From IMG/VR virus record IMGVR_UViG_3300046167_000815, positions 15,212 through 79,211 of that record: a stretch of DNA of 64,000 nt; one strand, 5' to 3'. A program made the translations under genes and the position numbers. Shown here piece after piece: positions 24,283-52,247 of this stretch (the stretch's first letter is position 1; every line of letters starts with the position of its first letter). The notes beneath the pieces are model-generated. The model did no database searches and was not told the origin of the DNA. It was given only the letters and a program-made list of their open reading frames with translations. The DNA comes from a virus.

Positions 24283-27200
24283 ATGGCTTGTAGATATTTT
24301 GTTGGTGGTTACTCACTAACCGAAGCACAATTTAAAAAAGTGCTTAATGATGGTCTTCTAGATCAATTACTAGTTAAACAAGGTATTGAAATACCAGGGT
24401 TTAATATTAAAGAGGAGTTTATAGAAAGTACTCTTGAAAGTGCTAAACAAGGTCCTGTAGAATTAAGAGTAGTATCTAAAATAAACAGTAAGAAGCGAAT
24501 AAACAATCAATTAGAAAAAGTAAGCTACACAGAAGGAGACGTTATAGGCGGGACTAATAGAAGAAGTGCTGCACGTAAATTAACTACTGTTATAAAAGAA
24601 GCTAACGATCAAATTAAAAAAGAAAATAAAAGGTTAAATAAAAAAAGAAAACCAATAGACCTCATACTGGTAACTTCTGTTGGAGGTAAACTACAATACG
24701 GAGAAAATATTTCTAAAAAAGTAGTACAAGAAATAGAAGACAGTCCTTATGTAAATCTAGAAGATGGTTTTATATATATGCTGGTTCCTAGTTCTTACGG
24801 TTTATATCCAATAAGATTAGAGTCCCGTTTCTTAGGAGAAACAAATGTAGGTAGCCAAGTAAAAGAAAACGTAAAAAAATTATTTACTGAAACAGACAAC
24901 AAAGTTTTTGACAATATTGCAAAAAATATAAGTAGGTTTTTATATAAAACAACAATAAAAAAGACTCCTGAAGGAGTTAATATAACTACTACTAAAGCAG
25001 ATAAAGAACAAGTATCAAAGACTTTTGAAACTGCCGAAGAACTAATTACTTTTATTTTAGGAGACCGAGCAGGTAAAAAACTAAACAAAGATAAAGACGG
25101 CAACCTTAGTACTAATAAAGGTTTATTGGCTCATGTAAACAGTTTAAAAATAAACAATAATGTTAAAGACCCTAATTCTTTATCTAATGATTTTTATGCT
25201 AACAATGAATTTATAACTACAGATGTCTATACTGAAGGAGGTAACTTTTTTAATAGCAGTAGTTTTGTTGTAGAAGCATTTAATCCTACAACCCAAACAA
25301 CAAAAGTATTAGGAGAGATATTAAGCAGCTCTATACCTGTTAAAGAAGAAAGTGAGGCTAGCTCTAAAATAGTTAAACCTATTGTAAAAGAAGAAACTAA
25401 AGAAGACGAACTTCCAATTAATAATAAAACAATAGAAGAAGTACAAGAACTTCAATCTATTTATATACCTATAGAAAACTCTAATTTACAATATAGAGTT
25501 TACGTAAGAGCTAAAGAAAATACTTTAGAAATGTATGAAGTAGAAAAAGGAAGTTTAGTAGCTGTTCCTAATTCTAATGCAAAAAAATGGAAAGTATCTT
25601 CTAAGGCAAATTCTAAAGAAACTAGTATTGCTCGTAAAGAAGCAAAGCCTAAGTTTGACGAACTTAAAAAACAGTTTGGTACAAAAGATACTACTACTCC
25701 AGAAGGAGGTATATACCAAGATCCTAAAACTGGAGAAGATGTAGGAACAGGTTTGTTTGATAATCCTATTGTTGAAGAAACAGAATCTACTCCTGAGACA
25801 GAAACAAACATATCAGGAATATTTGATTACGGAGAAGAAGGAGATGTAGGGGAAGATTTAGATATAAAACCACGTACTCGTACTGTAGATAATAAAGAAA
25901 ACGCTGTACAATGGGATAAAGAAAAAGAACTTAAATGGTTAATAGATAAACTAGGCAGAAAAGTTCTAGATGGAAAAGTATCTTTATTTAATTCTGTAGA
26001 AGACTTAGAATCTTATTTGCCTAAAGAAACTTACGAAATGCTATTAGAAGCACGTAAAAACGGAAAGTTTCTTAACGGTTTGTTTACTAAAGCAGGAATG
26101 TACATATCAAACAATGCTTTTGATGGAACAGGTTTTCACGAAGCATTTCACGTAGTATTTAATCTAGGGCTTAACTTAGAACAAAGAATTAGTTTATTAA
26201 ATGAAGCAGTAGAAAAATACTCTGACGAAATCTCACCAGAAGCTACTTTAATAAAAATAGAAGAAGTACTTGCAGATAAGTTTATGGAGTACGTACAAGC
26301 AGAAGGAGAAGTAAAAGGTCTTGTAGGAAAAATAGGCAAATGGTTTAAAGCTATGTTTAGAGGTTTTAAATTATTTTTTAATAAAAACTCTGTAGTTTCT
26401 ATATCAGATTTGTTTAGTGATATTCAATTAGGTGTTTATAAAAACAAAATTACTTTTGAAAATACGGACTTAACTAAAATACATCCTGAAAATATTAAGC
26501 TGCGTGAAACAGAAAATACTAATAAAAGTAATAACGATCCTATACCAGAGTTAGATCCTAGATTAAAAAAAGATGCTTTTCAATATATGGAAAACAGACT
26601 TTTTCAAGAACTAGATAAAATAAGAGAAGAAAACGCTGATTTTAAAAATTTATCAGATTCTGAATTAATTAATGAAATATCTAAACAAGGAGGTATAAAA
26701 CGTATTTACGGGGTGCTTCTTTATAGAATGTCCCTGGACGCTAAGGCTAGTGCAAACGCAGGTAAAGATATTTCTAATTTATTAGAAATATGGAATGCGT
26801 TTACAAATAACAATAAAGCAATAGAAAAAACAATAATTGCTGGAAAAAGAATGCCTATTTTTAAACTAGGCCTTACTCCTTTAGCTAAAGAGTTTAATCG
26901 TTCTTTACGTAATAGAGGTATTAATATTAATTTAGATTCAATAGAAGACTTAAAATATACTTTTACAGAAGAAGAAGAAAATTCTTTTGCTAAAGATGTA
27001 GAGAATAGCACTGCAGAAGAGCGTTGGCAACAAGCTTATATAGAAATAAATCCACAAGAAACTTTATCTCAACTTACTAGAAGAAGACTAAGTACTATTC
27101 CAAAAATGATTATAGTAGACGGAGAAGAAGTGAGAGCTACTAATAGATTAGGAATTCCTATTAACTATTCTGAAAAAGAAGTATTTGCTTATTTAGCCCA

Positions 27201-30200
27201 TAATATTACTGATTCTTATAGTCCTTCTAAAATGGTAAATAGACTAAAAGAATTGTCTGACAAAAAACCTTTTATAGAAGAGATTTTAAATATGATACAA
27301 AAGTATCCTAATTTTAAAAATTCTTTGTACACTACTTTGGCTTCTAAAACTTTTCAAAAGTTTTTAATGGTTTTAGAAGTAGATGGAAATTACAGAACTT
27401 TTTATTCTAACAGAAAATCTATAGATAATCTTATTACAGAAACTATGATTAACGGTTTTGTAGTAGATGAGAATCCTCTTTTTGATAAACACGATAGTGA
27501 AAGTGAACTAAAAGGACAAATAGATTTTGAAACTCCTATTAAGAAAAAAGTATCAGAACAAATTGCTAGATTAAATAGTCTAACAGAGCGTAGTAAGGTT
27601 ACTACTACTAAAGAAGAAATAACTGATTTTATTAGTGACTTTGCAAAATTTTTAAAAGACAATCATTTAAGTGTAAGTGAAGATCAGTTATTAGAAATAT
27701 GGAATCCTGATACAGAAAATACTAAATCTAAATGGAATAATATTGTAAAATTACTTAGTAGTACTGGTAAAATATTTAAAGAACTTGAGCAAGGTAGAAA
27801 TCCTTTTTTACAAATGCGAGTGTCGGACGACAGTGTATTTAAAAATGTATTAAAAGAATTTGTATTTAGAGCAAAATCAGGAATGGAAAAAGACCTAAGT
27901 ATTGCTTTTGTAAATGGAAATAAAAAAGCAGTATACGCAGTTCAATATTCTAATTACTTAAATAAACTAATTTCTAAATTTAAAAATCCTAAAGATTTTA
28001 AAGAATACAAAGCAGAAATAGCAAACGATCCTTTGCTTAGTAGTATGCCAATGATTACAGATCTTTTAACCGAAGAAGGAGAGGCTTCTCAGTTAATGGA
28101 TAATTTAGAAACAGTTATTTTTGATTCTTTAGCAAGAAGCGGAAAAAATACAAATGTAGACTATTCTGATTTGTCAGATATTGAAATAGAATCTATGGCA
28201 ATGGCGGCCTTTTTTAAACAAGGTAACAAAAGCAACTATGGTTATTACAAACTTCCTATTCCTGCAGATAACTCTGTATTGCCTCTAATTCAATATAAAA
28301 AATATGACTTTAAAGAAGTCGTAGATAGATTTGTTCAAGTAGCCAATGCAGAAAGAAAAAGAATAAATTTCTTTAAAAATTTACCAGAAGACTCTTCTCT
28401 TCTTTTAATAGAAAACTTTAAGAAGAACGCAGGTAAATATCATATATTAAACTTTTTAAATGGCAAAGTATCTGAAAATACTAGTGTTGATGATATTAGA
28501 ATTATAATAGAAGACCATTTACTAACAGAGTTTTTAGAGTTACAAAAAGAAAAATATAAAGATGCGGGCATAATAAAAGAATACGAAAAGGGCCCTAATG
28601 GTAAAATTACTTTTACTGATGGAGTAATTAGTAAAAGCCAAGAAAAAAATTCTTCAGAGTTCTTTAAAAGTTATTTGTTTAATTCATATTTAATGAATAC
28701 TCAAATGACTACTATTTTTGCAGGGGACCCTGCTTTTTATACAGGCACAGGAGATTATCAAAAAAGATACAAACAAATAGTATCTCCTGGAACTTTTACT
28801 AATTCTGAAATTATATATGATAAGTATTCTGGTTTAGTATTCAATGATGAAGTAGCTCCTACAGAATCTTACGTTGTAGATAATATTATAGATTTAGTAA
28901 GAGCTTCTGATCTGCCTGCAGAAAACAAAAAAGAATTAATAGCTAGATGGGAATCAACTAGAAGTACTACTTCTGATAAAGGCCATAATAATCTTACTGA
29001 TGCGGCTACTTTTATATCTTTAGATAGAGCTAAAAATATTTTAGTATCTCTTGATAGATATACTCCAGCACATAAAAAAGCATTTGAAAGAATAAAAAAA
29101 GGAATTGAAAAACCAGAAGACTCTGCTTTGTTTAGTGTCTCAAAACCTTTTATGTTTAGTAAGATGAATATAGAAGGAGTAGAAGTTCCTATTCAAATTA
29201 AAAACTCAGAAGTACTTTTAACTAAAGCACTTGCATATAAAAAAGATGCAGACGGAAACTTTATGCGTCCTAAACTAGTAGCTGCTTACGATTTATTAAA
29301 CAATCCTAAACCAGATGGTCCGCAAATAGATTTTATTGCTTTTGAATCTGCTGTAAAAGTAGGAGCTATAGGAAGTAAACTAGACGAAGAAGGAAACGTT
29401 ACATATAATGAATTAGTAGAAGATGATGAAGGCAAACTAATATTAAACGGACCTCCTGCTATTGTTACTTTAGACCATGCAGACTGGAGACTTCAACAAG
29501 AAGTACCGCCTAAATACGAAGATGCTTCTGGTAACTTTGGTAGCCAATTACGTAATCTAATTATAAGTGATATGTCAATGGACGGCATATACAAAATAAA
29601 TAAAAAAGATTATACAGGAAGAGAAGTAGCAAGAATGTATCAAGATCTTATAGTAGAAAATCTACAAGAGTCTTACGAAGATGTAGAAGAAATGTTCCTG
29701 GACGAAGACGGGGAAATAGACTATAAAAAAATTACTACTCATTTAAGAGCAGAAATTACAAGAAGAAACTTAGGAGAAGAATATTTTAAAGCAATAGAGC
29801 TTGTAGATAATGTTCGTAAAAATAAAAAAACACCTACTTTACCTCTTTGGCATCCTTTAGTTTCTTATAAAGTAGAAAGCCTTCTAAACTCTTTCTTTAA
29901 AAATAATGTTACCAAACAAAAAATTAAAGGAGGAGCAATGGTCAATGCTACTTCTTACGGAGTATCTGAAGAACTAGAGTTCTACATAGATAAAAACGGT
30001 AATTATTTAATGGAAGCTTTGCTGCCTTGGTGGACTAAAAGATTCTTTCCTAAAAATAAAGATGGCGAGATAGATTTAAAAACACTGCCAAAAGAATTAA
30101 CAGCGCTTTTAGGTTACCGTATTCCTACTGAAGATAAATACTCTATGTTTAATATTAAAGTAGTAGGGTTTACGGATTCAGCAGCAGGAGGTACTATTAT

Positions 30201-33200
30201 TCTTCCTCAAGAAGCTACTACTCAAGCAGGACTCGATTTTGATATTGATAAACTTTCTATGATTATTCCTGAGTACAGAATAACAAAAGAAGGTAAAATA
30301 GAATACAAAAAATATTTAAATGAAAATTCTTCTGCTGAAGAAATTGTGGACGCTATTTTTGACAGTAATAGTTCTTACGAATCTTTTGTTAATAAGTATG
30401 TTCCAAAAAGCAGTCAAAAAAGAATACTAAAGTTAAAAGAAGAAGCTGATCAAGATATTTTTAATTCTGTTTTATCAAGAAACAACTGGAAAAAAGATGT
30501 AGGTTTTACAGAGATTGTAACAGAAATAAAAGATTTAACAGAAGAAAGTAAAAAAGAAACAGACCCTGTAAAAAAAGCCGCTCTTAAAAAACAAATTAAT
30601 TCTTTACGTAATAAAGTATACGAAGAAAAAGATTTATTTGATGCAGGTGTTAATACTGCGCATGAAAGATACAAGACTCTTAAAAAAGATATAGCTGGTT
30701 TTGTAGAAACGATTTCTAAAGACGAATACGTAGACTTTAATACTAAAGCAACACGTAATAATCAATTATTACAAATAATGATTGGTATTATGGAAAATAA
30801 AGAAACGGCTCTTTCTATTATTGACTCTGGTAACTTTGATAAGTTAATAGAATTAGGAACTAGTACTAGAATACTACAACTACCAAAAGATTCTAATCTT
30901 AAAAAAGAAGGTATAGATATTTTAAAAGATTTTAAATCTGGAAAAATAGATGTTTTACAATATAGAGAACTACTTAAAGATTTTTCTAAAAAATTAGATG
31001 ATAAGGATTTTAATATAAATTATCCTTCTACACAATTGACTTTGTTTAGACGTAATATGACAGGTAAAAAGCTAATTGGTATTTTTGCAAATCATAATTC
31101 TAATCATGCTAAAGCACAATACACAAATCTTGCTTTGAATTCAAGTGTTAAATTTGATGGAATAGAATACAACAGTTTAAATAATGTAAAAAATTCTGAA
31201 GGAGAAAGAATATCTAAATCATTAGCAATTAAATTAGCTGCTGTTGTAGACAACGCTCAAGAACCTGTATCTGCTTATTTAAATATGAACACTTACACGG
31301 CCAATGTAATCGCATACTTATCTAGATTAGGAGTTAAAGAAGATACTATTTTTGCTTTTGTTAATCAACCTTCAATTGTAGAACTTACAAAAGAGCACTT
31401 TAACGAAAAAGGATCTGCTGCAACAGAAAAAAATAGAGTAGACAAACACATTGCACAGCTAAAAGGAGATTTAGGCATCAATAATATTAGTTTAGATTCT
31501 ATAGAAATGGAAGAAGGGAATCTAAATTTAAAAGAATTGCAAGATGCTTTAGATAATAATAACTCTAAAGAAACATTAATTACTCAGTATAAAGCGTTAG
31601 TAGCTTTTAAAGATCATTACAATATAGCAGAAGAATTAAGCCAAATAACGCAAGCTTCTAAAGTAGATACTCAACCTGTAGGTCCTTCTAATGGAGAAAA
31701 CTATGTAATGATTAATAAACAACAAAGAGTATTAAATAGAAGTAACTCTATGATTACAGGTAAAGAAGAATTATTTTTTACAGAATCAGAGCAATTAATT
31801 AATCCTGCTTTTAATAAATATGGATGGTTAAAACCTTTAGGTATTTTAAATAAAGTATTTCCTTCTATAGGAAAAATTTCTACAGAAACAGGTAGTATAC
31901 AATACTCTATGCTAGGAAAAATAAAAAATTTCTTTTCTGATTTAAAAACAGATTTTAATTTAACAGCTTCGGAAGCACGCCAGGTAGACAGTCTGTTTAT
32001 GTCTTACATAGGGTCTAAACTTCCTTTCTTTAATTACAAAGATGCTACAAGAGTTTTAAATGAAGTTCCTGATACATTGCGTAAGTACAAAGAAGAAAAC
32101 CCAGATTCTATTTACATGCCGCTTTTAGAAGCTTTGTATACTAAAGATGCTACAAGAACTGTTCCTGTACGTAGAATAGAATACTACAATACAGGTAAGA
32201 AGAGTTTAGATCATGAAGAAGCAAGAGCAGCTTGGAAACAAATGCTAACTGCAGAAAATGCTAAAGACAGAAAACTAGCGTTAGATTTAGTTAAATATAC
32301 TTTTTTCTCTAATGGATATAGTTTTAGTTCTTATTCATTCTTTAATATGATTCCTGTAGAGTTTTGGAAAGACTCTTTTGCAAAAGAAGATATTAATAAA
32401 GGAGTAGGACTTTTAGACGAAAACAATAATAGTTTTAATGATATAGCTGAATTAGTTTTTGAAGATTTAAAAAACGAACCTGCGGTAGGAGTTGACGGTT
32501 ACATAACACAATCAGGCGCTGTATATAATTTTATTAAACAGTTTATACAAAATACTGCAGAAAAATCTATGGTAGTACCTTCTTTAAATTTAAAAGAAGA
32601 TACTCCAAGAGGATTTACTCCTAAAAAAGGAGTTTTAAAATTAGCACCTGACGAAGTATTTGTTTTTGGAACTACACAAGAAGGAGCTCATAATATAGAT
32701 GCTGCAGGGTTTGCTTTTAGCGGAAACGCTACAACAAATAAATCTTTGTATAAAAAAGGAGACACAGGTAAATGGACTCAATACGGTATAACGGGTCAAA
32801 TTACACTTGGTACAGAAGGACAAGGATTTGGTATAAGAATGCAAAAAGCTACTTTTAAAGATGGGTCTTTAGAAAAAATAGAAGGTCCTAAACAATTAGA
32901 AGAAGCTGAAAGTAGAAAGCTTATAACATCTATGAAATCTGATTTAAGAAAATTAATTAAAGCAGCTAACGAAAATAATAATAAAACTTTTATTGTAGGA
33001 AATTTAGATAATTCTACTAATGATACAGGAAGAACAAGTTTTAAAATTATTAAACAAGCTTTAGAAGAAGTTAACAAAGAAGCTATGTTTCCTGAAAATG
33101 TAATTTTTCCTGAAAAATACGATCCAAGGATAAATAACAATAGAAAAATTGTAAAAGTTGATAATACTCAAAGTTTAATTATTAGAAAAGCAGCTCATCA

Positions 33201-33753
33201 AAACTATAAAAATAATGATGGAGTTTTTCCTTCTTTCTTTAAAGTAACTAAAAATAAAGTTACTAGTGTTTACGAAATAAATAAAGAAACTTTAGATAAG
33301 GATTACTTAGAATACAATAAGATTCCTACATTAGGAACTAACAATTTTATTGTAGAATTTAATTACAATAATCCTATAAATGAGTCTATAGTTCCTAAAA
33401 TTATTAAGAAGAGCAGCGGTTTAACTTTGACCAACAAAAAAGAAATAGAGGAAAAGTATCAAGAAGCTCCTCCAATAGATCCTACAAACTCTTCTTTGTT
33501 TACTATTTCTACAAAAGAAGTACTGGAAGATTTAAAAGACGACGATTACCCAGACATAGATGTTTTACAATTTTCTGCGCCTACAATAAAATCAAACATA
33601 GAAACACCAAATATTGGGCCCAAGGAAGCTCCTTACTCAGAATATAGTACTTTAGCAAAAAGTAAAAAGCAAGTTCCTATGCCAGAAAGTATTTGGGAAA
33701 AAGCAAGCGCTTTAGAAAAAGCAAGTATTATGATACAACTTAAAGAATGTTAA
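24283..33753 (+). CDS. Virion-packaged RNA polymerase (crAss/phi14:2 gp66-type) with N-terminal zincin and a macro-like insert
   Basis: GYRIPTE...AGLDFDIDKL catalytic motif (DFDID at 30235-30249), FESAVKVG, GSQLR, AAVVDNA. HEAFH at 26137-26151. Confidence 0.9.
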   Translation: MACRYFVGGYSLTEAQFKKVLNDGLLDQLLVKQGIEIPGFNIKEEFIESTLESAKQGPVELRVVSKINSKKRINNQLEKVSYTEGDVIGGTNRRSAARKLTTVIKEANDQIKKENKRLNKKRKPIDLILVTSVGGKLQYGENISKKVVQEIEDSPYVNLEDGFIYMLVPSSYGLYPIRLESRFLGETNVGSQVKENVKKLFTETDNKVFDNIAKNISRFLYKTTIKKTPEGVNITTTKADKEQVSKTFETAEELITFILGDRAGKKLNKDKDGNLSTNKGLLAHVNSLKINNNVKDPNSLSNDFYANNEFITTDVYTEGGNFFNSSSFVVEAFNPTTQTTKVLGEILSSSIPVKEESEASSKIVKPIVKEETKEDELPINNKTIEEVQELQSIYIPIENSNLQYRVYVRAKENTLEMYEVEKGSLVAVPNSNAKKWKVSSKANSKETSIARKEAKPKFDELKKQFGTKDTTTPEGGIYQDPKTGEDVGTGLFDNPIVEETESTPETETNISGIFDYGEEGDVGEDLDIKPRTRTVDNKENAVQWDKEKELKWLIDKLGRKVLDGKVSLFNSVEDLESYLPKETYEMLLEARKNGKFLNGLFTKAGMYISNNAFDGTGFHEAFHVVFNLGLNLEQRISLLNEAVEKYSDEISPEATLIKIEEVLADKFMEYVQAEGEVKGLVGKIGKWFKAMFRGFKLFFNKNSVVSISDLFSDIQLGVYKNKITFENTDLTKIHPENIKLRETENTNKSNNDPIPELDPRLKKDAFQYMENRLFQELDKIREENADFKNLSDSELINEISKQGGIKRIYGVLLYRMSLDAKASANAGKDISNLLEIWNAFTNNNKAIEKTIIAGKRMPIFKLGLTPLAKEFNRSLRNRGININLDSIEDLKYTFTEEEENSFAKDVENSTAEERWQQAYIEINPQETLSQLTRRRLSTIPKMIIVDGEEVRATNRLGIPINYSEKEVFAYLAHNITDSYSPSKMVNRLKELSDKKPFIEEILNMIQKYPNFKNSLYTTLASKTFQKFLMVLEVDGNYRTFYSNRKSIDNLITETMINGFVVDENPLFDKHDSESELKGQIDFETPIKKKVSEQIARLNSLTERSKVTTTKEEITDFISDFAKFLKDNHLSVSEDQLLEIWNPDTENTKSKWNNIVKLLSSTGKIFKELEQGRNPFLQMRVSDDSVFKNVLKEFVFRAKSGMEKDLSIAFVNGNKKAVYAVQYSNYLNKLISKFKNPKDFKEYKAEIANDPLLSSMPMITDLLTEEGEASQLMDNLETVIFDSLARSGKNTNVDYSDLSDIEIESMAMAAFFKQGNKSNYGYYKLPIPADNSVLPLIQYKKYDFKEVVDRFVQVANAERKRINFFKNLPEDSSLLLIENFKKNAGKYHILNFLNGKVSENTSVDDIRIIIEDHLLTEFLELQKEKYKDAGIIKEYEKGPNGKITFTDGVISKSQEKNSSEFFKSYLFNSYLMNTQMTTIFAGDPAFYTGTGDYQKRYKQIVSPGTFTNSEIIYDKYSGLVFNDEVAPTESYVVDNIIDLVRASDLPAENKKELIARWESTRSTTSDKGHNNLTDAATFISLDRAKNILVSLDRYTPAHKKAFERIKKGIEKPEDSALFSVSKPFMFSKMNIEGVEVPIQIKNSEVLLTKALAYKKDADGNFMRPKLVAAYDLLNNPKPDGPQIDFIAFESAVKVGAIGSKLDEEGNVTYNELVEDDEGKLILNGPPAIVTLDHADWRLQQEVPPKYEDASGNFGSQLRNLIISDMSMDGIYKINKKDYTGREVARMYQDLIVENLQESYEDVEEMFLDEDGEIDYKKITTHLRAEITRRNLGEEYFKAIELVDNVRKNKKTPTLPLWHPLVSYKVESLLNSFFKNNVTKQKIKGGAMVNATSYGVSEELEFYIDKNGNYLMEALLPWWTKRFFPKNKDGEIDLKTLPKELTALLGYRIPTEDKYSMFNIKVVGFTDSAAGGTIILPQEATTQAGLDFDIDKLSMIIPEYRITKEGKIEYKKYLNENSSAEEIVDAIFDSNSSYESFVNKYVPKSSQKRILKLKEEADQDIFNSVLSRNNWKKDVGFTEIVTEIKDLTEESKKETDPVKKAALKKQINSLRNKVYEEKDLFDAGVNTAHERYKTLKKDIAGFVETISKDEYVDFNTKATRNNQLLQIMIGIMENKETALSIIDSGNFDKLIELGTSTRILQLPKDSNLKKEGIDILKDFKSGKIDVLQYRELLKDFSKKLDDKDFNINYPSTQLTLFRRNMTGKKLIGIFANHNSNHAKAQYTNLALNSSVKFDGIEYNSLNNVKNSEGERISKSLAIKLAAVVDNAQEPVSAYLNMNTYTANVIAYLSRLGVKEDTIFAFVNQPSIVELTKEHFNEKGSAATEKNRVDKHIAQLKGDLGINNISLDSIEMEEGNLNLKELQDALDNNNSKETLITQYKALVAFKDHYNIAEELSQITQASKVDTQPVGPSNGENYVMINKQQRVLNRSNSMITGKEELFFTESEQLINPAFNKYGWLKPLGILNKVFPSIGKISTETGSIQYSMLGKIKNFFSDLKTDFNLTASEARQVDSLFMSYIGSKLPFFNYKDATRVLNEVPDTLRKYKEENPDSIYMPLLEALYTKDATRTVPVRRIEYYNTGKKSLDHEEARAAWKQMLTAENAKDRKLALDLVKYTFFSNGYSFSSYSFFNMIPVEFWKDSFAKEDINKGVGLLDENNNSFNDIAELVFEDLKNEPAVGVDGYITQSGAVYNFIKQFIQNTAEKSMVVPSLNLKEDTPRGFTPKKGVLKLAPDEVFVFGTTQEGAHNIDAAGFAFSGNATTNKSLYKKGDTGKWTQYGITGQITLGTEGQGFGIRMQKATFKDGSLEKIEGPKQLEEAESRKLITSMKSDLRKLIKAANENNNKTFIVGNLDNSTNDTGRTSFKIIKQALEEVNKEAMFPENVIFPEKYDPRINNNRKIVKVDNTQSLIIRKAAHQNYKNNDGVFPSFFKVTKNKVTSVYEINKETLDKDYLEYNKIPTLGTNNFIVEFNYNNPINESIVPKIIKKSSGLTLTNKKEIEEKYQEAPPIDPTNSSLFTISTKEVLEDLKDDDYPDIDVLQFSAPTIKSNIETPNIGPKEAPYSEYSTLAKSKKQVPMPESIWEKASALEKASIMIQLKEC

Positions 33754-37862: not shown

Positions 37863-37888
37863 TTCAGAGAGCCCTTGAGCTCTCTGAA
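37863..37888. terminator. Hairpin between convergent transcription blocks
   Basis: TTCAGAGAGC-ccttga-GCTCTCTGAA, a perfect 10-bp stem. Confidence 0.7.
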
Positions 37889-37893
37889 TTAAT

Positions 37894-38762
37894 TTAAAAA
37901 ATATATCTAATTTTATTCCACGGAATCATTTCATCGTGTAAGTTTTTAAAATATTTTATATACTTAGATTTTAATCCTTTAGCATATCTAATATTTTTAC
38001 CGCCATATTGAGAAGTTTTTACTTCTTGTTTTTTAGGCTGCCACAATAAATCTTCTCCTGATACGTTATTAGCTACATTATACTTATGTTTATTTTCATT
38101 ATGAGTTAAAAAATAACCTCTGACAATACATCTTTTTTATACTCTTCTTTAATATGCATATCACATAAAGCAAATAACTTAGCATAATGTTTTAGCCAAT
38201 CGTCAAACACAACTACTGGACTAAAATTTAAGTGCACTTCATACCCAGCTTCAATAAATTTATTTACTGATTTAATCCTGTCTATAATATCTGGAGTATT
38301 AGGCTCTAATTTTTCTTTGATTATTTGCGGCATAAGACTAAATCTAATTCTTACTTTCTTTTTAGGATTAAATTCTAAGAACTTAGTAGGAATTATTTTA
38401 GTAGCAAACGTTGCTTTAGCAATAGGATGCTCTACAAAAAACTCAAATATTTTTTGCCATTCGTGGTATTTAGCATGTAAAGCAAAATCTTCGTTACAAG
38501 CAATGTCATAAGTAACATACTCAGGATCCGTTTGATTAGGCTTTTTTACATCAGCATAAAAATATGCATGATTGTTAATCGCTGTTAGTATATCGCCATA
38601 GTTTTTTGCAACAGTAAGGCCTTCTGGCAAATGCCTTTTCATATAACAGTAGGAGCATTTAAGTAAACAGCCGAACCCAAAAGAAGGCGAGATATAATCG
38701 CTACTTCTTTCTGACAATCGGATTTCCATAGCTTTTCTACTGACTTTCTTTATTTCAGTCAT
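37894..38762 (-). CDS. Spore photoproduct lyase-family radical SAM protein (frameshift near 38108)
   Basis: GCLLKCSYCY (CxxxCxxC), DIACNED, FATK, RIRFSL. The C-terminus EVIFLTHN...LW...SQYGGKNIRY...IRYIF continues to TAA at 37894. Confidence 0.85.
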
Positions 38763-38774
38763 ATGTACTTCTAT

Positions 38775-38945
38775 TTATGATCCACAACCAATGCAATCTA
38801 TATGGCTATCCATAGGTTTAATTCCTTTAAGTTTCATTTGTAAGTTATGAATTTCGTCTTTAATATTCATATCTTGAAACATGTCACCAGTTAATTGCGA
38901 TTCTAAAGAAGCTATAGTAGCTTCTAATTCTTCTTTGTTTTCCAT
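38775..38945 (-). CDS. 56-aa microprotein ending in CxxCGS
   Basis: Read manually: MENKEELEATIASLESQLTGDMFQDMNIKDEIHNLQMKLKGIKPMDSHIDCIGCGS. Confidence 0.75.
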   Translation of the reverse strand: MENKEELEATIASLESQLTGDMFQDMNIKDEIHNLQMKLKGIKPMDSHIDCIGCGS

Positions 38946-38955
38946 GATTTTTATT

Positions 38956-39280
38956 TTATGATTCGTATTCTAATTCTTCTTTTAACAAAATTAAAAAATC
39001 TTCTTTAGTTCCTAAAACTCTAGGGCTCTTCATAAACAATTTCATAGTCTCTATACTCAAACTTTTCTGCTTCTGTATTATGCTTAGAAATCATTTTTTC
39101 AAATATAGCCTCTACACTTTTTGTATAAAGCAATAAATCAGTTTCTAATTCTATTACAAAATTATAACCTCCTTTAGGTTTCCACTTTGGTTTTTTGTCT
39201 CCATAAGTATTAAATCCCTTGGGCCCTACATTATAGTTTTCATAATACTGAGTTTTGATAATAATTTTTTCTTCTACCAT
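38956..39280 (-). CDS. Hypothetical protein (frameshift near 39023)
   Basis: TQYYENY...WKPKGG. Continues as PRVLGTKEDF...YES after removing one base. Confidence 0.55.
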
Positions 39281-39963
39281 TTTATAGTTTCTTTATATAA
39301 GTTATTTAAAATAACATTAGCCTCTTTAAAATTAGGACAATGCCAGTCTTTTTTAGGATAGACGTAATCTTTAGGGTCATCAAAAGTCAAAACATGATTA
39401 TTTTTTTCTAAGAAAGGTTTTAGTTTTTGATTTTCTTCTCCCCATAAAATGTAAATAGTACCTGGTTTATACTGATTTAAAGCATTTAAAACTGCAGATA
39501 TAAACTTACCCCAAGGCTTAGTATGTTCGCCTTTGTCGTCTTCTCTAATTGTCAACTGTTTGTTTAATAGAAGTACTCCTTGTTTAGCCCAGTCTTCTAA
39601 ACTAAAATCAAACCCTAAATGCAAACCATTGTGAAATTCTCTTTCTACTTGTTCAAAAATTCTAGTAATAACAGGTGAATAAAACTGCGTTACAAATTCA
39701 TTTCCATATGCTAAACCATTAGCAGCTTCTATGTTTCTGTGCGGCTGTTTGCCTATAATAACAACTCTGGTAGATTCCCAAGGGCAAAGTTTAAAAGCCT
39801 TAAATATGTTTTCTTTATTAGGTTTTACTTTGTTCATAGCATATTCTGCTCCGACAAAACCCATTAATTTAGAAGTACCATATTCTGTTTTAAGTGTTTC
39901 TTGTAACTGGATAGCCCACCCTTTTCCCAGGGTGTCTATCCAGAATTGTTTTTTATATTTCAT
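39274..39963 (-). CDS. Family-1 uracil-DNA glycosylase homologue with substituted catalytic residues
   Basis: RVVIIG, GLAY, WAKQGVLLLN and YILWG align with Ung, but GQDPY has become GKQPH and HPSP has become DPKD. Confidence 0.8.
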   Translation of the reverse strand: MKYKKQFWIDTLGKGWAIQLQETLKTEYGTSKLMGFVGAEYAMNKVKPNKENIFKAFKLCPWESTRVVIIGKQPHRNIEAANGLAYGNEFVTQFYSPVITRIFEQVEREFHNGLHLGFDFSLEDWAKQGVLLLNKQLTIREDDKGEHTKPWGKFISAVLNALNQYKPGTIYILWGEENQKLKPFLEKNNHVLTFDDPKDYVYPKKDWHCPNFKEANVILNNLYKETIKW

Positions 39964-39964
39964 A

Positions 39965-40592
39965 TTAGTTATCAAATTCTTTTGCAGGATTTAGTTTATG
40001 CGTTACTCCTAATTGTTTTAACGTTTTACTACTAAGGCCTTCTTTATTTTTATCTATTATGGACCATACTTCTTGGTCTCCTAAAATTACAGGATCATTC
40101 TCAGAAGAAGAAAGAGCTTTTTCCCAGCTTTTTCTAAGTTCAGGACATCTGCTTAAAATACGAGGAAGAATATTAGGGTTTAATTTAAAGAAACCGTTTT
40201 TTAATATAAGACCTTTTATTTCTGGAGACAAGTTTAGAATACTTACCTTCTAATAAAAGATTATATTGATCCAAATGTTTTTCAGGTATCTTAAATACCA
40301 TAACAATAAAATCGTCTTTTTCGTATTCGTCCACATAAGTTGCCATAGATATTATTGTCGAATAAAACTCTTCAAAATTATAATCTCTGTAAGGTTTTAG
40401 TACTATAAAAATATACGGCTCGTGATTAAAATCAAATTCTAGATCTTCGTCCCACATAAAAGCATTAGAAAATCTAGTAGTCATAATGCGTTTATTAAAA
40501 CTGTTTGTAACATCGCATCTAAATAATTGTTTAGGTATTTCCAAAAGAGGAAACAAAAACGTTGATGTCTGCGTATATTTTTTATCGCTCAT
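39965..40592 (-). CDS. Hypothetical phage protein (two ORFs joined; frameshift near 40232)
   Basis: LLEGKYSK runs into SPEIK in the adjacent frame. Confidence 0.6.
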
Positions 40593-51071: not shown

Positions 51072-52247
51072 GTTGTAGTTTAATTAAATTTACAAATTCA
51101 GCTAATGTTACATCTGTTACCAAACTCGGATCTACATTCTTCATTCTTTTTTGCATCCACTTCTCTTCTTGAGTTTGCGGTGTATAAAGATTTATAAAGT
51201 ATGCTTCCTTGCCTGGAATATGTCTTACTACTCTTCCTAATTGTTGAATAAAAGTAAGAGCAGTAGAGTTACTGCCTGCTACAATTCCTATAGAACATTC
51301 AGGTACATCCAATCCCTCGTTTAAAGCTTTACACGTGTTTAGAATTCTAATCTTCGTGCGTTTATCTTTAAAAGTCTTCATTACAATGCCCTGTGACTTC
51401 TTAGAAAGTTTGCTATGAAAAGTCATCGAAATGTCCCCCAAGGACACTCTGTAAGGAATCAGCAAAATCTGTGTTTGCACTAAAAGTAAGGCCGTTTCTG
51501 TTAGGAAACAGTCTTTACAATAGTTGCAACAGCATTAACTTTGTTTATGTTATTCAAACAAAGTTTCTTTCTTGTTCTTAATGAGTTATAATAAGCGGCA
51601 GCTTTGCCTCTTTCAGTAGGATCATCAGATCCTATCCATAATTTAGCAGTATCAAAAGCTTGTCCACCTCTGCCCATTTGCATGGCAAAGTATTTAAAAC
51701 TATTGTCTGCTTTTTTATATGCAGCTAAGTCGTCAGGAGTAAACGGCACTTGTACATTAAAGATTTTATATGGAGAAATCCATGAATGCTGTAAAGCCTC
51801 TTCAATAGTAATAGTGTCAAAGACTGGCATTTGTTTTAATATAATTTCATGCAGTCCGTCATCTCTTTCTAACGTAGCTGTTAAGCCTAAGATATACTTG
51901 TACTTAGTACGTACAAATATTTCTTTAAATGTTTCTGCAGCATATCTATGAACCTCGTCTAAGATTAAAAAATCTACGTCGTGGGTCTTTTTTACTGCAG
52001 AGTTTATAACATATACTTCTGCTATATTTACTTTCTTTTTGGCCAATTCTTTCTCCCATTGTTCTTTTAGTGTGATAGTAGGAACTACTACAACTACACT
52101 CTTGATTTGTTTTTTGGAGATCATGCCTATGATCGCTCTAATTGCTGTATATGTTTTACCGAAACCTGTAGGATATTCGGCAATGCCTTGAAACGAAGAC
52201 TGTCTCCATTTACGAAGACCCTCAACCTGTCTTGCATCTCTATTCAT
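51058..52247 (-). CDS. Superfamily 2 DExH helicase (frameshifts near 51510 and 51437)
   Basis: PTGFGKT, LDEVH, LTAT, LNEGLDVP, QQLGRVVR. Confidence 0.85.

What the first reader, a model, noticed from the sequence alone, without database searches (positions are those of the whole stretch)
37894..39963. Candidate phage UV-repair module: SPL-like radical SAM enzyme, CxxCGS microprotein and pseudo-UDG
Seen: four tightly packed co-oriented genes, namely an Ung homologue, a ~105-aa unknown, a 56-aa CxxCGS protein and a radical SAM enzyme. The enzyme has CxxxCxYCY and ACNED, which aligns with the ASCTSD H-donor cysteine of Bacillus SplB. Known: spore photoproduct forms preferentially in dehydrated, compacted DNA, and the FLTHN/GGxNxRY C-terminus resembles the uncharacterised SPL-family subgroup of non-sporulating bacteria. 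Inference: densely packaged AT-rich virion DNA in sunlit water could accumulate spore photoproduct, and this module could repair it after injection. Base modification of phage thymine is an alternative.
Basis: partly seen in the sequence, partly recalled or inferred. Interest (0 to 1): 0.8.

Follow-up and report, generated by a model that had tools for sequence, protein, structure and literature searches.

The report
Short phage spore-photoproduct-lyase-like enzyme

Summary
The four co-oriented genes exist, but two are broken here by private 1-nt homopolymer indels. These are T6 for T7 at 38108-38113 in the radical SAM gene and CCC for CC at 39023 in the 107-aa gene. Near-identical contigs and two independent seawater runs carry the intact forms.

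The intact enzyme is 289 aa and belongs to the SPL family. It scores 95.7 bits on Pfam SPL and 302.9 bits on TIGR03886, which is below that model's cut-off. An AlphaFold model matches Geobacillus SPL at Z 29.3 over residues 58-341. The cluster cysteines, both relay tyrosines, the H-donor Cys (ACNED) and most residues that contact SAM or the lesion are conserved. The N-terminal 57-62 residues and two phosphate-binding residues are not.

- The gene occurs in 58 viral loci in many contexts.
- The CxxCGS microprotein accompanies it in 6 of them.
- The 107-aa gene accompanies it in 5.
- A UDG-like gene, sometimes catalytically canonical, accompanies it in 15.

No thymine-hypermodification partner genes were found. 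The most likely reading is a stand-alone, light-independent lyase for spore-photoproduct-type thymine dimers. The substrate is unproven.

This scan has flagged the same short phage SPL on other genomes, and two follow-ups there reached the same "single gene, not a module" verdict.

The parts
37894..38762 (-). Short-form SPL-family radical SAM gene. It is 289 aa when intact. Here it is split into 218 aa (38106-38762) plus a 71-aa tail (37897-38109, -1 frame) by a 1-nt deletion in the T-run at 38108-38113.
   Evidence: Scores: Pfam SPL 87.6 bits for the N part; TIGR03886 208 + 76 bits for the two parts, abutting at profile positions 275/276. The intact homologue P0001 (98% identical, 289 aa) scores 302.9 bits. 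The T6/T7 difference is shown. The AF2 model (pLDDT 89.9) matches PDB 4FHF at Z 29.3, rmsd 2.2 A over 277 residues.
38775..38945 (-). 56-aa microprotein ending in DSHIDCIGCGS, 12 nt upstream of the radical SAM start.
   Evidence: It is a real, strongly conserved family: 178 clusters at 53-100% identity, with invariant TG.M..DM...D.IHNL.M...G.KP.D.H.DC.GCG. It is present in at least 177 viral contigs and in 6 of 401 sampled Bacteroidota genomes at E <= 1e-27. Only 8 of 89 loci also have the SPL-like gene. No Pfam, PHROG or NCBIfam match.
38956..39280 (-). Gene of unknown function. It is 107 aa in relatives and truncated to 86 aa here by an extra C at 39023 (CCC for CC).
   Evidence: It is found only in the window's closest relatives, L003-L006. 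No family match.
39274..39963 (-). Family-1 UDG homologue lacking the catalytic Asp and His (pseudo-UDG or altered-specificity glycosylase).
   Evidence: Pfam UDG 31.6 bits; ung models 83-139 bits, all below their cut-offs; phrog_12143 at 1e-40. In the alignment to human UNG, D145 is Q, Y147 is H, H268 is D and L272 is Y, while N204 is kept. The closest annotated relatives are UDGs of crAss-like phages. Motif loss differs between lineages, and L041 and L056 are canonical.
37863..37888 (.). Hairpin with a 10-bp stem between the convergent 1364-aa gene and the radical SAM gene. Candidate bidirectional terminator.
   Evidence: This is a consensus scan only: 3 sites were found against 0.9 expected.

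Best explanation
The radical SAM gene encodes a stand-alone, shortened member of the spore photoproduct lyase (SPL) family. It is carried as a single accessory gene in the replication or early regions of many uncultured aquatic phages.

Shown here:
- It is intact (289 aa) in the phage population.
- It has the SPL fold from residue 58 of Geobacillus SPL to the C-terminus, including the beta-hairpin.
- It keeps the [4Fe-4S] cysteines, the SAM-binding Lys and Ser, the lesion-binding Arg and Glu and probably the C-terminal Tyr, the H-donor Cys and both relay tyrosines.

Inferred mechanism:
1. After injection, or during replication, the reduced cluster cleaves SAM.
2. The 5'-deoxyadenosyl radical abstracts H from C6 of a flipped-out 5-thyminyl-5,6-dihydrothymine-type dimer.
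3. The methylene bridge breaks.
4. Cys89 returns an H atom, and Tyr40/Tyr38 relay the radical back.

The net result would be light-independent direct reversal of a thymine-thymine lesion in the phage's AT-rich DNA (about 30% GC).

The UDG-like gene, the 107-aa gene and the CxxCGS gene are neighbours in this lineage, not obligate partners. The frame breaks in the window are assembly errors.

I put about 0.95 on 'SPL-family enzyme acting by SPL-like radical chemistry', and about 0.5 on 'the substrate is spore photoproduct or a very similar thymine dimer in DNA'.
For: Family and fold:
- Pfam SPL 95.7 bits. TIGR03886 302.9 bits over profile positions 63-346. TIGR04070 92.2 bits.
- Foldseek E 4e-18, TM 0.86 to SPL. 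VIA Z 29.3 against 13.8 for the next radical SAM fold.

Residue mapping to Geobacillus SPL read against the functional residues in Benjdia 2012, PMC3467042:
- C32/C36/C39 = C90/C94/C97
- Y38/Y40 = Y96/Y98
- C89 = C140
- K122 = K174
- R140 = R193
- S142 = S195
- E215 = E268
- Y253 = Y305 (hairpin tip)
- Y287 is close to Y339
All of these except Y253 (nearly invariant, >=90%) are invariant in 25 phage sequences at 57-73% identity to the first sequence, and most hold across 68 representatives down to about 30% identity.

Stand-alone character: 58 viral loci show many different contexts, next to DNA pol A, helicase, primase, MoxR/vWA or lysins, with no recurrent partner.

No modification pathway found:
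- No 5-hmdU pathway gene appeared among 29 scanned proteins.
- No ThyA-family gene is present in the 79-kb record.

Link to bacterial SPL-family proteins:
- A full-length bacterial TIGR03886 member (521 bits) is 48% identical.
- An 'SPL family protein' is UV-induced in non-sporulating Curtobacterium (PMC12029717).

Gene intact in the population.
Against: - No activity data exist for this subfamily or for TIGR03886.
- The two residues proposed to hold the intra-lesion phosphate (R273, K309) align with invariant Asn222 and Asn257. K225 and R259 lie nearby.
- It scores below the equivalog cut-offs of both SPL models.
- From general knowledge, packaged phage DNA is hydrated B-form, whereas spore photoproduct is favoured in A-like or dry DNA. 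The proposed substrate may therefore be rare in virions.
- Distant relatives (24-26% identity) occur in human-gut phage contigs, where UV is irrelevant.
- An SPL-like fold is used for a DNA-modification reaction in phage M6.
Confidence: 0.5

Rival explanations
1. The enzyme repairs or processes a different nucleic-acid lesion or substrate by SPL-like chemistry. Examples are another methylene- or carbon-bridged pyrimidine adduct, damage inflicted by a host defence, or a lesion in single-stranded or replicating DNA. The loss of the N-terminal domain and the altered phosphate contacts would reflect this changed substrate.
For: - N-terminal truncation, and R273/K309 replaced by invariant Asn.
- Below the equivalog cut-offs.
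- In other branches of the wider family the H-donor Cys is replaced by E, N or T.
- Distant gut-phage relatives exist.
- The short forms are one large radiation derived from the long bacterial form (rough FastTree, support values not examined).
Against: The residues that hydrogen-bond the dihydrothymine base (R193, E268, probably Y339), the hairpin Tyr and the full H-atom relay are all kept. This argues for the same kind of thymine dimer.
Confidence: 0.2
2. The enzyme writes or remodels a DNA base modification, in the manner of phage M6 gp53. That protein is an SPL-like radical SAM isomerase that converts N-alpha-glycinylthymine in a thymidine hypermodification pathway.
For: Precedent: Lee et al. 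2021, PMC8989533. The phage DNA is AT-rich. The gene sits in the DNA metabolism module.
Against: - M6 gp53 works inside a cluster with a 5-hmdU kinase, aGPT-Pplase and a PLP decarboxylase. None of these recurs beside this gene in 58 loci, and none was seen among 29 scanned proteins.
- No ThyA-type hydroxymethylase is present in the record.
- No sequence match to M6-type phages was found in 50,697 GenBank phage records.
- The SPL-specific repair residues, especially the H-donor Cys, are kept.
Confidence: 0.12
3. One reading: the UDG-like protein, the 107-aa protein, the CxxCGS microprotein and the SPL-like enzyme act together as one UV-repair module. For example, the pseudo-UDG would recognise the lesion and the CxxC protein would supply reducing equivalents.
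For: - Tight packing with overlaps or 10-12 nt gaps.
- The microprotein is adjacent to, or within 3 kb of, the enzyme in about five separate lineages and in both gene orders: the window group, L008, L082, L083 and L147.
- A UDG-like gene lies directly next to the enzyme in two lineages with different gene order.
Against: - About 90% of loci for each gene lack the other: 6/58 and 8/89.
- The 107-aa gene is confined to near-identical relatives.
- UDG is a standard gene of crAss-like replication modules and is catalytically canonical in some loci that carry the enzyme.
- The usual neighbours of the microprotein are unrelated genes of unknown function, and it also occurs in Bacteroidota chromosomes without an SPL-family gene within about 1.5 kb.
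Confidence: 0.08
4. The gene is a pseudogene, or is expressed through a programmed -1 frameshift at the T-run.
For: In the window the frame breaks inside the invariant EVIF|LTHN motif at U UUU UAA, where a -1 slip would restore the frame.
Against: - All 57 related viral loci are in frame. The two near-identical contigs have T7, and others have ATCTTTTTA, which does not slip.
- Contigs of two independent seawater runs carry the extra base.
- The window has five private 1-nt indels in 9.2 kb, which break other genes too.
Confidence: 0.05

Closest known systems
Spore photoproduct lyase SplB / SPL (Bacillus subtilis; Geobacillus thermodenitrificans, PDB 4FHC/4FHD/4FHF; NCBIfam TIGR04070)
   Same: - Radical SAM partial TIM barrel with the C-terminal helices and beta-hairpin (Z 29.3, rmsd 2.2 A, 277 residues).
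- CxxxCxYCY cluster motif.
- H-donor Cys at the Bacillus-type position.
- Tyr96/Tyr98 relay.
- SAM ligands K174 and S195.
- Base contacts R193 and E268, and the hairpin Tyr305.
   Different: - Only 20% identical, and 92 bits against a cut-off of 400.
[quoted passage not shown]
- R273 and K309 are replaced by Asn.
- Encoded by phages of non-sporulating, probably Bacteroidota, hosts, with no SplA or sporulation context.
NCBIfam TIGR03886, 'spore photoproduct lyase family protein' of non-spore-forming bacteria (function untested; for example the 345-aa gene in a Cytophagales MAG, L065:5818-6855)
   Same: This is the closest sequence family: 48% identity to the Cytophagales member, 302.9 bits over profile positions 63-346, and the same FLTHN / GG.N.RY / IRY C-terminal motifs. 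A protein named 'SPL family protein' is UV-induced in Curtobacterium.
   Different: The phage score is below the equivalog cut-off (437.55) because the first 62 profile positions are missing. The short form is a separate large clade. The bacterial long form was found in only 1 of 301 sampled Bacteroidota genomes.
Pseudomonas phage M6 gp53, radical SAM N-alpha-glycinylthymine isomerase (Lee et al. 2021, PMC8989533)
   Same: A phage-encoded radical SAM enzyme with an SPL-like fold that acts on thymine-derived bases in DNA.
   Different: - No detectable sequence similarity by tblastn.
- gp53 is embedded in a kinase / aGPT-Pplase / PLP cluster that is absent here.
- The protein here keeps the SPL repair residues.
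Family-1 uracil-DNA glycosylase (human UNG, E. coli Ung; UDGs of crAss-like phages such as Cellulophaga phage phi14:2 g042)
   Same: Full-length homology (E 1e-26 to human UNG, 36% identity to phi14:2 UDG). The Asn204 equivalent is kept, and the gene sits in a replication module.
   Different: Catalytic Asp145 is Gln, His268 is Asp, Tyr147 is His and Leu272 is Tyr. All ung models score below their cut-offs. A second lineage (the L007 group) lost the same motifs in a different way. From general knowledge, poxvirus D4 shows that a UDG fold can also serve as a replication processivity subunit.

Membership tests
Radical SAM superfamily | CxxxCxxC motif that binds the [4Fe-4S] cluster | tested here: met
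   C32-x3-C36-x2-C39 (CLLKCSYC). It is invariant in 25 phage homologues and aligns with C90/C94/C97 of Geobacillus SPL.
SPL family (Pfam PF20903) | Score above the gathering threshold (27 bits) | tested here: met
   87.6 bits for the window's N part and 95.7 bits for the intact P0001, covering profile positions 65-337 of 338.
SPL family (structure) | SPL-specific fold, including the C-terminal helices and beta-hairpin | tested here: met
   AF2 model with pLDDT 89.9. Match to 4FHF at Z 29.3, rmsd 2.2 A, model 1-289 on chain 58-341. The next fold scores Z 13.8.
TIGR03886 (SPL family protein, equivalog) | Whole-protein score of at least 437.55 bits over the full 346-position model | tested here: not met
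   302.9 bits, covering positions 63-346 only. The N-terminal 62 positions are absent.
TIGR04070 (spore photoproduct lyase proper, equivalog) | Whole-protein score of at least 400 bits | tested here: not met
   92.2 bits.
Spore photoproduct lyase (mechanism) | H-atom donor Cys (Bs C141 / Gt C140) and the Tyr96/Tyr98 relay | tested here: met
   ACNED aligns with ACTSD, and CSYCY with CHYCY. C89, Y38 and Y40 are invariant. This rests on sequence alignment only.
Spore photoproduct lyase (mechanism) | Lesion-base contacts Arg193, Glu268 and Tyr339 | tested here: inconclusive
   R140 and E215 align and are invariant. Y287 is invariant but lies one position off in an ungapped extension beyond the end of the HMM alignment.
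Spore photoproduct lyase (mechanism) | Intra-lesion phosphate contacts Arg273 and Lys309 | tested here: not met
   They align with N222 and N257, both conserved Asn. K225 and R259 lie nearby.
Spore photoproduct lyase (architecture) | N-terminal four-stranded alpha/beta domain | tested here: not met
   The model begins at SPL residue 58, and only the last strand and loop (the S76-S79 equivalent) remain.
Spore photoproduct lyase (activity) | SAM-dependent cleavage of 5-thyminyl-5,6-dihydrothymine in DNA | not testable with these tools
   Needs anaerobic reconstitution and an SP substrate.
Family-1 uracil-DNA glycosylase | Water-activating Asp (GQDPY) and leaving-group His (HPSPLS) | tested here: not met
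   GKQPH and FDDPKDY in the alignment to human UNG. All ung equivalog models score below their cut-offs.
Thymidine hypermodification cluster (M6/ViI type) | Co-located 5-hmdU DNA kinase, aGPT-Pplase, PLP enzyme and a dUMP hydroxymethylase | tested here: inconclusive
   None was seen among 29 Pfam-scanned proteins of the window and related loci, and there is no ThyA-family hit in the 79-kb record. Small ORFs and the missing ~43% of the genome were not covered.

The most novel reading that the evidence does not exclude
DNA packed in phage heads in sunlit water accumulates spore-photoproduct-type thymine dimers. A very large, so far undescribed radiation of miniaturised SPL enzymes in uncultured aquatic phages repairs them in the dark after injection. 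The radiation comprises 3,910 clusters at 90% identity and has no close homologue in 50,697 GenBank phage records. If true, this would be the first role for spore-photoproduct chemistry outside endospores and the first radical SAM DNA repair enzyme of a virus.
Probability: 0.3. Interest if true: 0.8.

Novelty: new variant of a known kind. Interest (0 to 1): 0.55.

Why it matters
SPL is the only radical SAM DNA repair enzyme known, and it is tied in textbooks to endospores. Here the same active site sits in a shortened protein that is abundant in uncultured marine phages and missing from cultured ones. That makes two questions directly testable. Do SPL-family proteins outside spore-formers repair spore photoproduct? 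Does packaged viral DNA acquire that lesion under UV? A positive answer would add a light-independent UV repair route to phage ecology in surface waters. A negative one would point to a new radical reaction on DNA. The 289-aa protein is also a minimal SPL scaffold for mechanistic work.

Tried and rejected
Context came from the search for related loci instead.
- **GenBank phages:** tblastn found no homologue above 26% identity and megablast found nothing for the region. No cultured reference phage could be used.
- **Programmed -1 frameshift or pseudogene:** rejected.
- **Read laying:** run X1 gave no laid contigs, and X4 gave only short unrelated pieces. These say nothing either way.
- **CxxCGS microprotein as an obligate partner, thiol shuttle or RiPP-type precursor of the radical SAM enzyme:** considered and not supported. 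81 of 89 of its loci lack the enzyme. Its usual neighbours have no Pfam family, and no RNR or redoxin was seen among those scanned.
- **Complex prediction:** not run. I do not claim binding, and adjacency alone did not justify the job.
- **Recurrent partner of the enzyme:** clustering of neighbours gave none. Three top 'clusters' were artefactual ORFs overlapping the gene itself.
- **Literature:** searches for phage or virome SPL and for K03716 found no description of phage-encoded SPL. The held library is not exhaustive.
- **BFVD fold search:** no close viral structure, best TM 0.66.
- **Side-chain distances in the AF2 model:** could not be measured because coordinates are not exposed.
- **Habitat enrichment (surface versus dark):** could not be computed because no sample metadata were available.
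Full report
**Anatomy**

The window is bases 15212-79211 of a 79-kb IMG/VR virus record that CheckV rates 57% complete. Its GC content is about 30%. On the minus strand between 37894 and 39975 lie four co-oriented genes:
- a UDG homologue (233 aa from the TTG start; the ATG is at 39963)
- an unknown ORF (86 aa as read here)
- a 56-aa ORF ending in DCIGCGS
- a radical SAM ORF

The block closes the replication module, which also holds the following:
- RusA
- a RecE-like PD-(D/E)XK nuclease
- primase
- DnaB
- an SNF2-like helicase
- ligase
- DNA pol A

It abuts a convergent 1364-aa gene across a hairpin with a 10-bp stem.

**Two frame breaks are artefacts**

The radical SAM frame stops after ...SEVIF (218 aa), and the conserved tail LTHN...GGKNIRY...IRYIF continues in the -1 frame. 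NCBIfam TIGR03886 matches the two pieces at profile positions 63-275 and 276-346 with no gap between them.

Near-identical contigs from other samples (L005, L006) have T7 where the window has T6. More distant relatives have ATCTTTTTA. All 57 related viral loci are in frame.

Contigs from two independent seawater runs carry the extra base. They also lack the extra C at 39023, which truncates the neighbouring gene from 107 to 86 aa.

Over 9.2 kb the window has five private 1-nt indels relative to L005/L006. One of them splits a 208-aa gene into the '135-aa' and '88-aa' ORFs upstream. I therefore treat the genes as intact in nature (289 aa and 107 aa) and reject both the pseudogene and the programmed-frameshift readings.

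**What the enzyme is**

The intact homologue P0001 is 98% identical to the window's N-terminal part and 289 aa long. Its family scores are:

| Model | Score | Cut-off | Coverage |
|---|---|---|---|
| Pfam SPL (PF20903) | 95.7 bits | 27 | profile 65-337 |
| TIGR03886 (SPL family protein of non-spore-formers) | 302.9 bits | 437.55 | positions 63-346 only |
| TIGR04070 (true SPL) | 92.2 bits | 400 | |

An AlphaFold2 model built from 25 homologues (pLDDT 89.9) matches only SPL structures strongly:
- Foldseek gives E 4e-18 and TM 0.86.
- VIA-align gives Z 29.3, rmsd 2.2 A over 277 residues, with model 1-289 on SPL 58-341.
- The next radical SAM fold scores Z 13.8.

[quoted passage not shown] 2012.

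**Active site**

I combined the HMMER alignments to PDB 4FHC with the residue roles given in PMC3467042.

| Phage residue | Geobacillus SPL residue | Role |
|---|---|---|
| C32 / C36 / C39 | C90 / C94 / C97 | [4Fe-4S] cluster |
| Y38 / Y40 | Y96 / Y98 | radical relay |
| C89 (ACNED) | C140 | H-atom donor |
| K122 | K174 | SAM carboxylate |
| S142 | S195 | SAM |
| R140 | R193 | dihydrothymine O4 |
| E215 | E268 | dihydrothymine O4 |
| Y253 | Y305 | hairpin tip |
| Y287 | probably Y339 | lesion base contact |

All of these except Y253 (conserved in at least 90%) are invariant in 25 phage sequences at 57-73% identity to the first sequence. Most persist in 68 representatives down to about 30% identity.

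There are two exceptions. R273 and K309, the proposed phosphate contacts, align with invariant Asn222 and Asn257. I could not measure side-chain superposition.

**Distribution**

- The family is large: 3,910 clusters at 90% identity reach E <= 1e-3, and the top 120 are almost all 274-311 aa long. In a library clustered at 50% identity, 646 representatives match, and most are short forms.
- A rough tree places the short forms as one radiation derived from the long (about 345 aa) bacterial TIGR03886 type.
- A genuine long member (521 bits, 48% identical) sits in a Cytophagales MAG chromosome. The long form was not found in 300 other sampled Bacteroidota genomes.
- No GenBank phage record has a homologue above 26% identity.
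- I found no paper in the held library that describes phage SPL.
- Near-identical DNA to this stretch occurs in seawater, sponge and other marine metagenomes from at least 11 studies.

**The 'module'**

I surveyed 58 loci that carry the enzyme (57 viral contigs plus the window) out to ±5 kb:
- The microprotein is present in 6. These are the window, four near-identical contigs and L008.
- The 107-aa gene is present in 5.
- A UDG-like gene is present in 15. It lies upstream in the window group, directly downstream in the L007 group, and several genes away in L031, L032, L041 and L056.
- Elsewhere the enzyme sits among small genes next to DNA pol A, helicase, primase, a MoxR/vWA pair or lysins.

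Seen from the other side, the microprotein is a strongly conserved family in its own right:
- It occurs in at least 177 viral contigs and in 6 of 401 sampled Bacteroidota genomes at E <= 1e-27.
- Only 8 of 89 of its loci contain the enzyme.
- Its usual neighbours are unrelated proteins without any Pfam family.

The UDG-like proteins next to the enzyme are not uniform. L041 and L056 keep GQDPY and/or the HP motif. L031/L032 keep the His. The window group and the L007 group lost both catalytic residues, in different ways. The closest annotated relatives are the UDGs of crAss-like phages, where UDG is a regular replication-module gene.

A weak residual signal remains: the microprotein lies adjacent to or near the enzyme in about five lineages, in both gene orders. 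I record this but do not interpret it as a partnership.

**Rival: base modification**

Phage M6 gp53 is an SPL-like radical SAM isomerase in thymidine hypermodification (PMC8989533). It works inside a kinase / aGPT-Pplase / PLP cluster and shows no sequence similarity to this protein. No such genes recur beside this enzyme. None was seen among 29 scanned proteins, and the record has no ThyA-type gene. A stand-alone gene that keeps the repair-specific H-donor Cys fits a self-sufficient lyase better.

**Support for repair from outside this window**

A gene named 'SPL family protein' is induced by UV-C in the non-sporulating Curtobacterium aetherium. The authors link this to spore photoproduct formation in desiccated, A-form DNA (PMC12029717). 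Whether packaged phage DNA forms the lesion is unknown. From general knowledge it is hydrated B-form, which argues for low yields.

**Verdict**

The SPL assignment is well supported. The four-gene repair module is not.

The gene is a new short variant of a known enzyme family. It is abundant in uncultured aquatic phages, and its substrate is untested.

The scan has flagged the same family on many other genomes. Two earlier follow-ups reached the same conclusion, that it is a single mobile gene and not a module.

Noticed in passing
window 38107, 39023, 40232, 44417, 44886: Five private 1-nt indels relative to two near-identical contigs (99.3% identity over 9.2 kb). The one at 40232 splits a 208-aa gene into the 135-aa and 88-aa ORFs. 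Other ORF calls in this window, such as the 248-aa helicase N-half at 51501-52247 (408 aa in relatives), may be broken in the same way.
   Followed up: partly
window 38775-38945; loci L069-L156: The 56-aa DCIGCGS protein belongs to a highly conserved microprotein family (invariant TG.M..DM...D.IHNL.M...G.KP.D.H.DC.GCG). The family is found in many marine phage contigs and in some Bacteroidota chromosomes (Belliella, Crocinitomicaceae). In 48 of 89 loci it precedes a conserved block of unknown genes (about 79, 73, 189 and 745 aa). Function unknown.
   Followed up: partly
L037:4771-6765 and L053:2115-3940: In two loci a 273-276-aa opposite-strand ORF with no Pfam match sits immediately upstream of the SPL-like gene. 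In L037 it is flanked by a duplicated 51-aa fragment of the gene's 5' end. This looks like a mobile-element or homing-endonuclease-type insertion.
   Followed up: no
protein P0121 (451 aa, metagenomic representative): A DUF4326 domain (PF14216, 41 bits) is fused in front of a short SPL-like enzyme. It could be a functional clue or a gene-call artefact.
   Followed up: no
window 39274-39963 and L007:8864-9562: Two phage lineages independently lost the catalytic Asp and His of their UDG while keeping the fold. The protein may have a non-catalytic or altered-specificity role in the replication module.
   Followed up: partly
window 24283-33753: A 3156-aa ORF with no PHROG match lies in a run of giant plus-strand genes (1563, 992, 1676, 3156 and 1364 aa). 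This is consistent with a crAss-like virion RNAP/ejection block, as other notes of this scan suggest.
   Followed up: no
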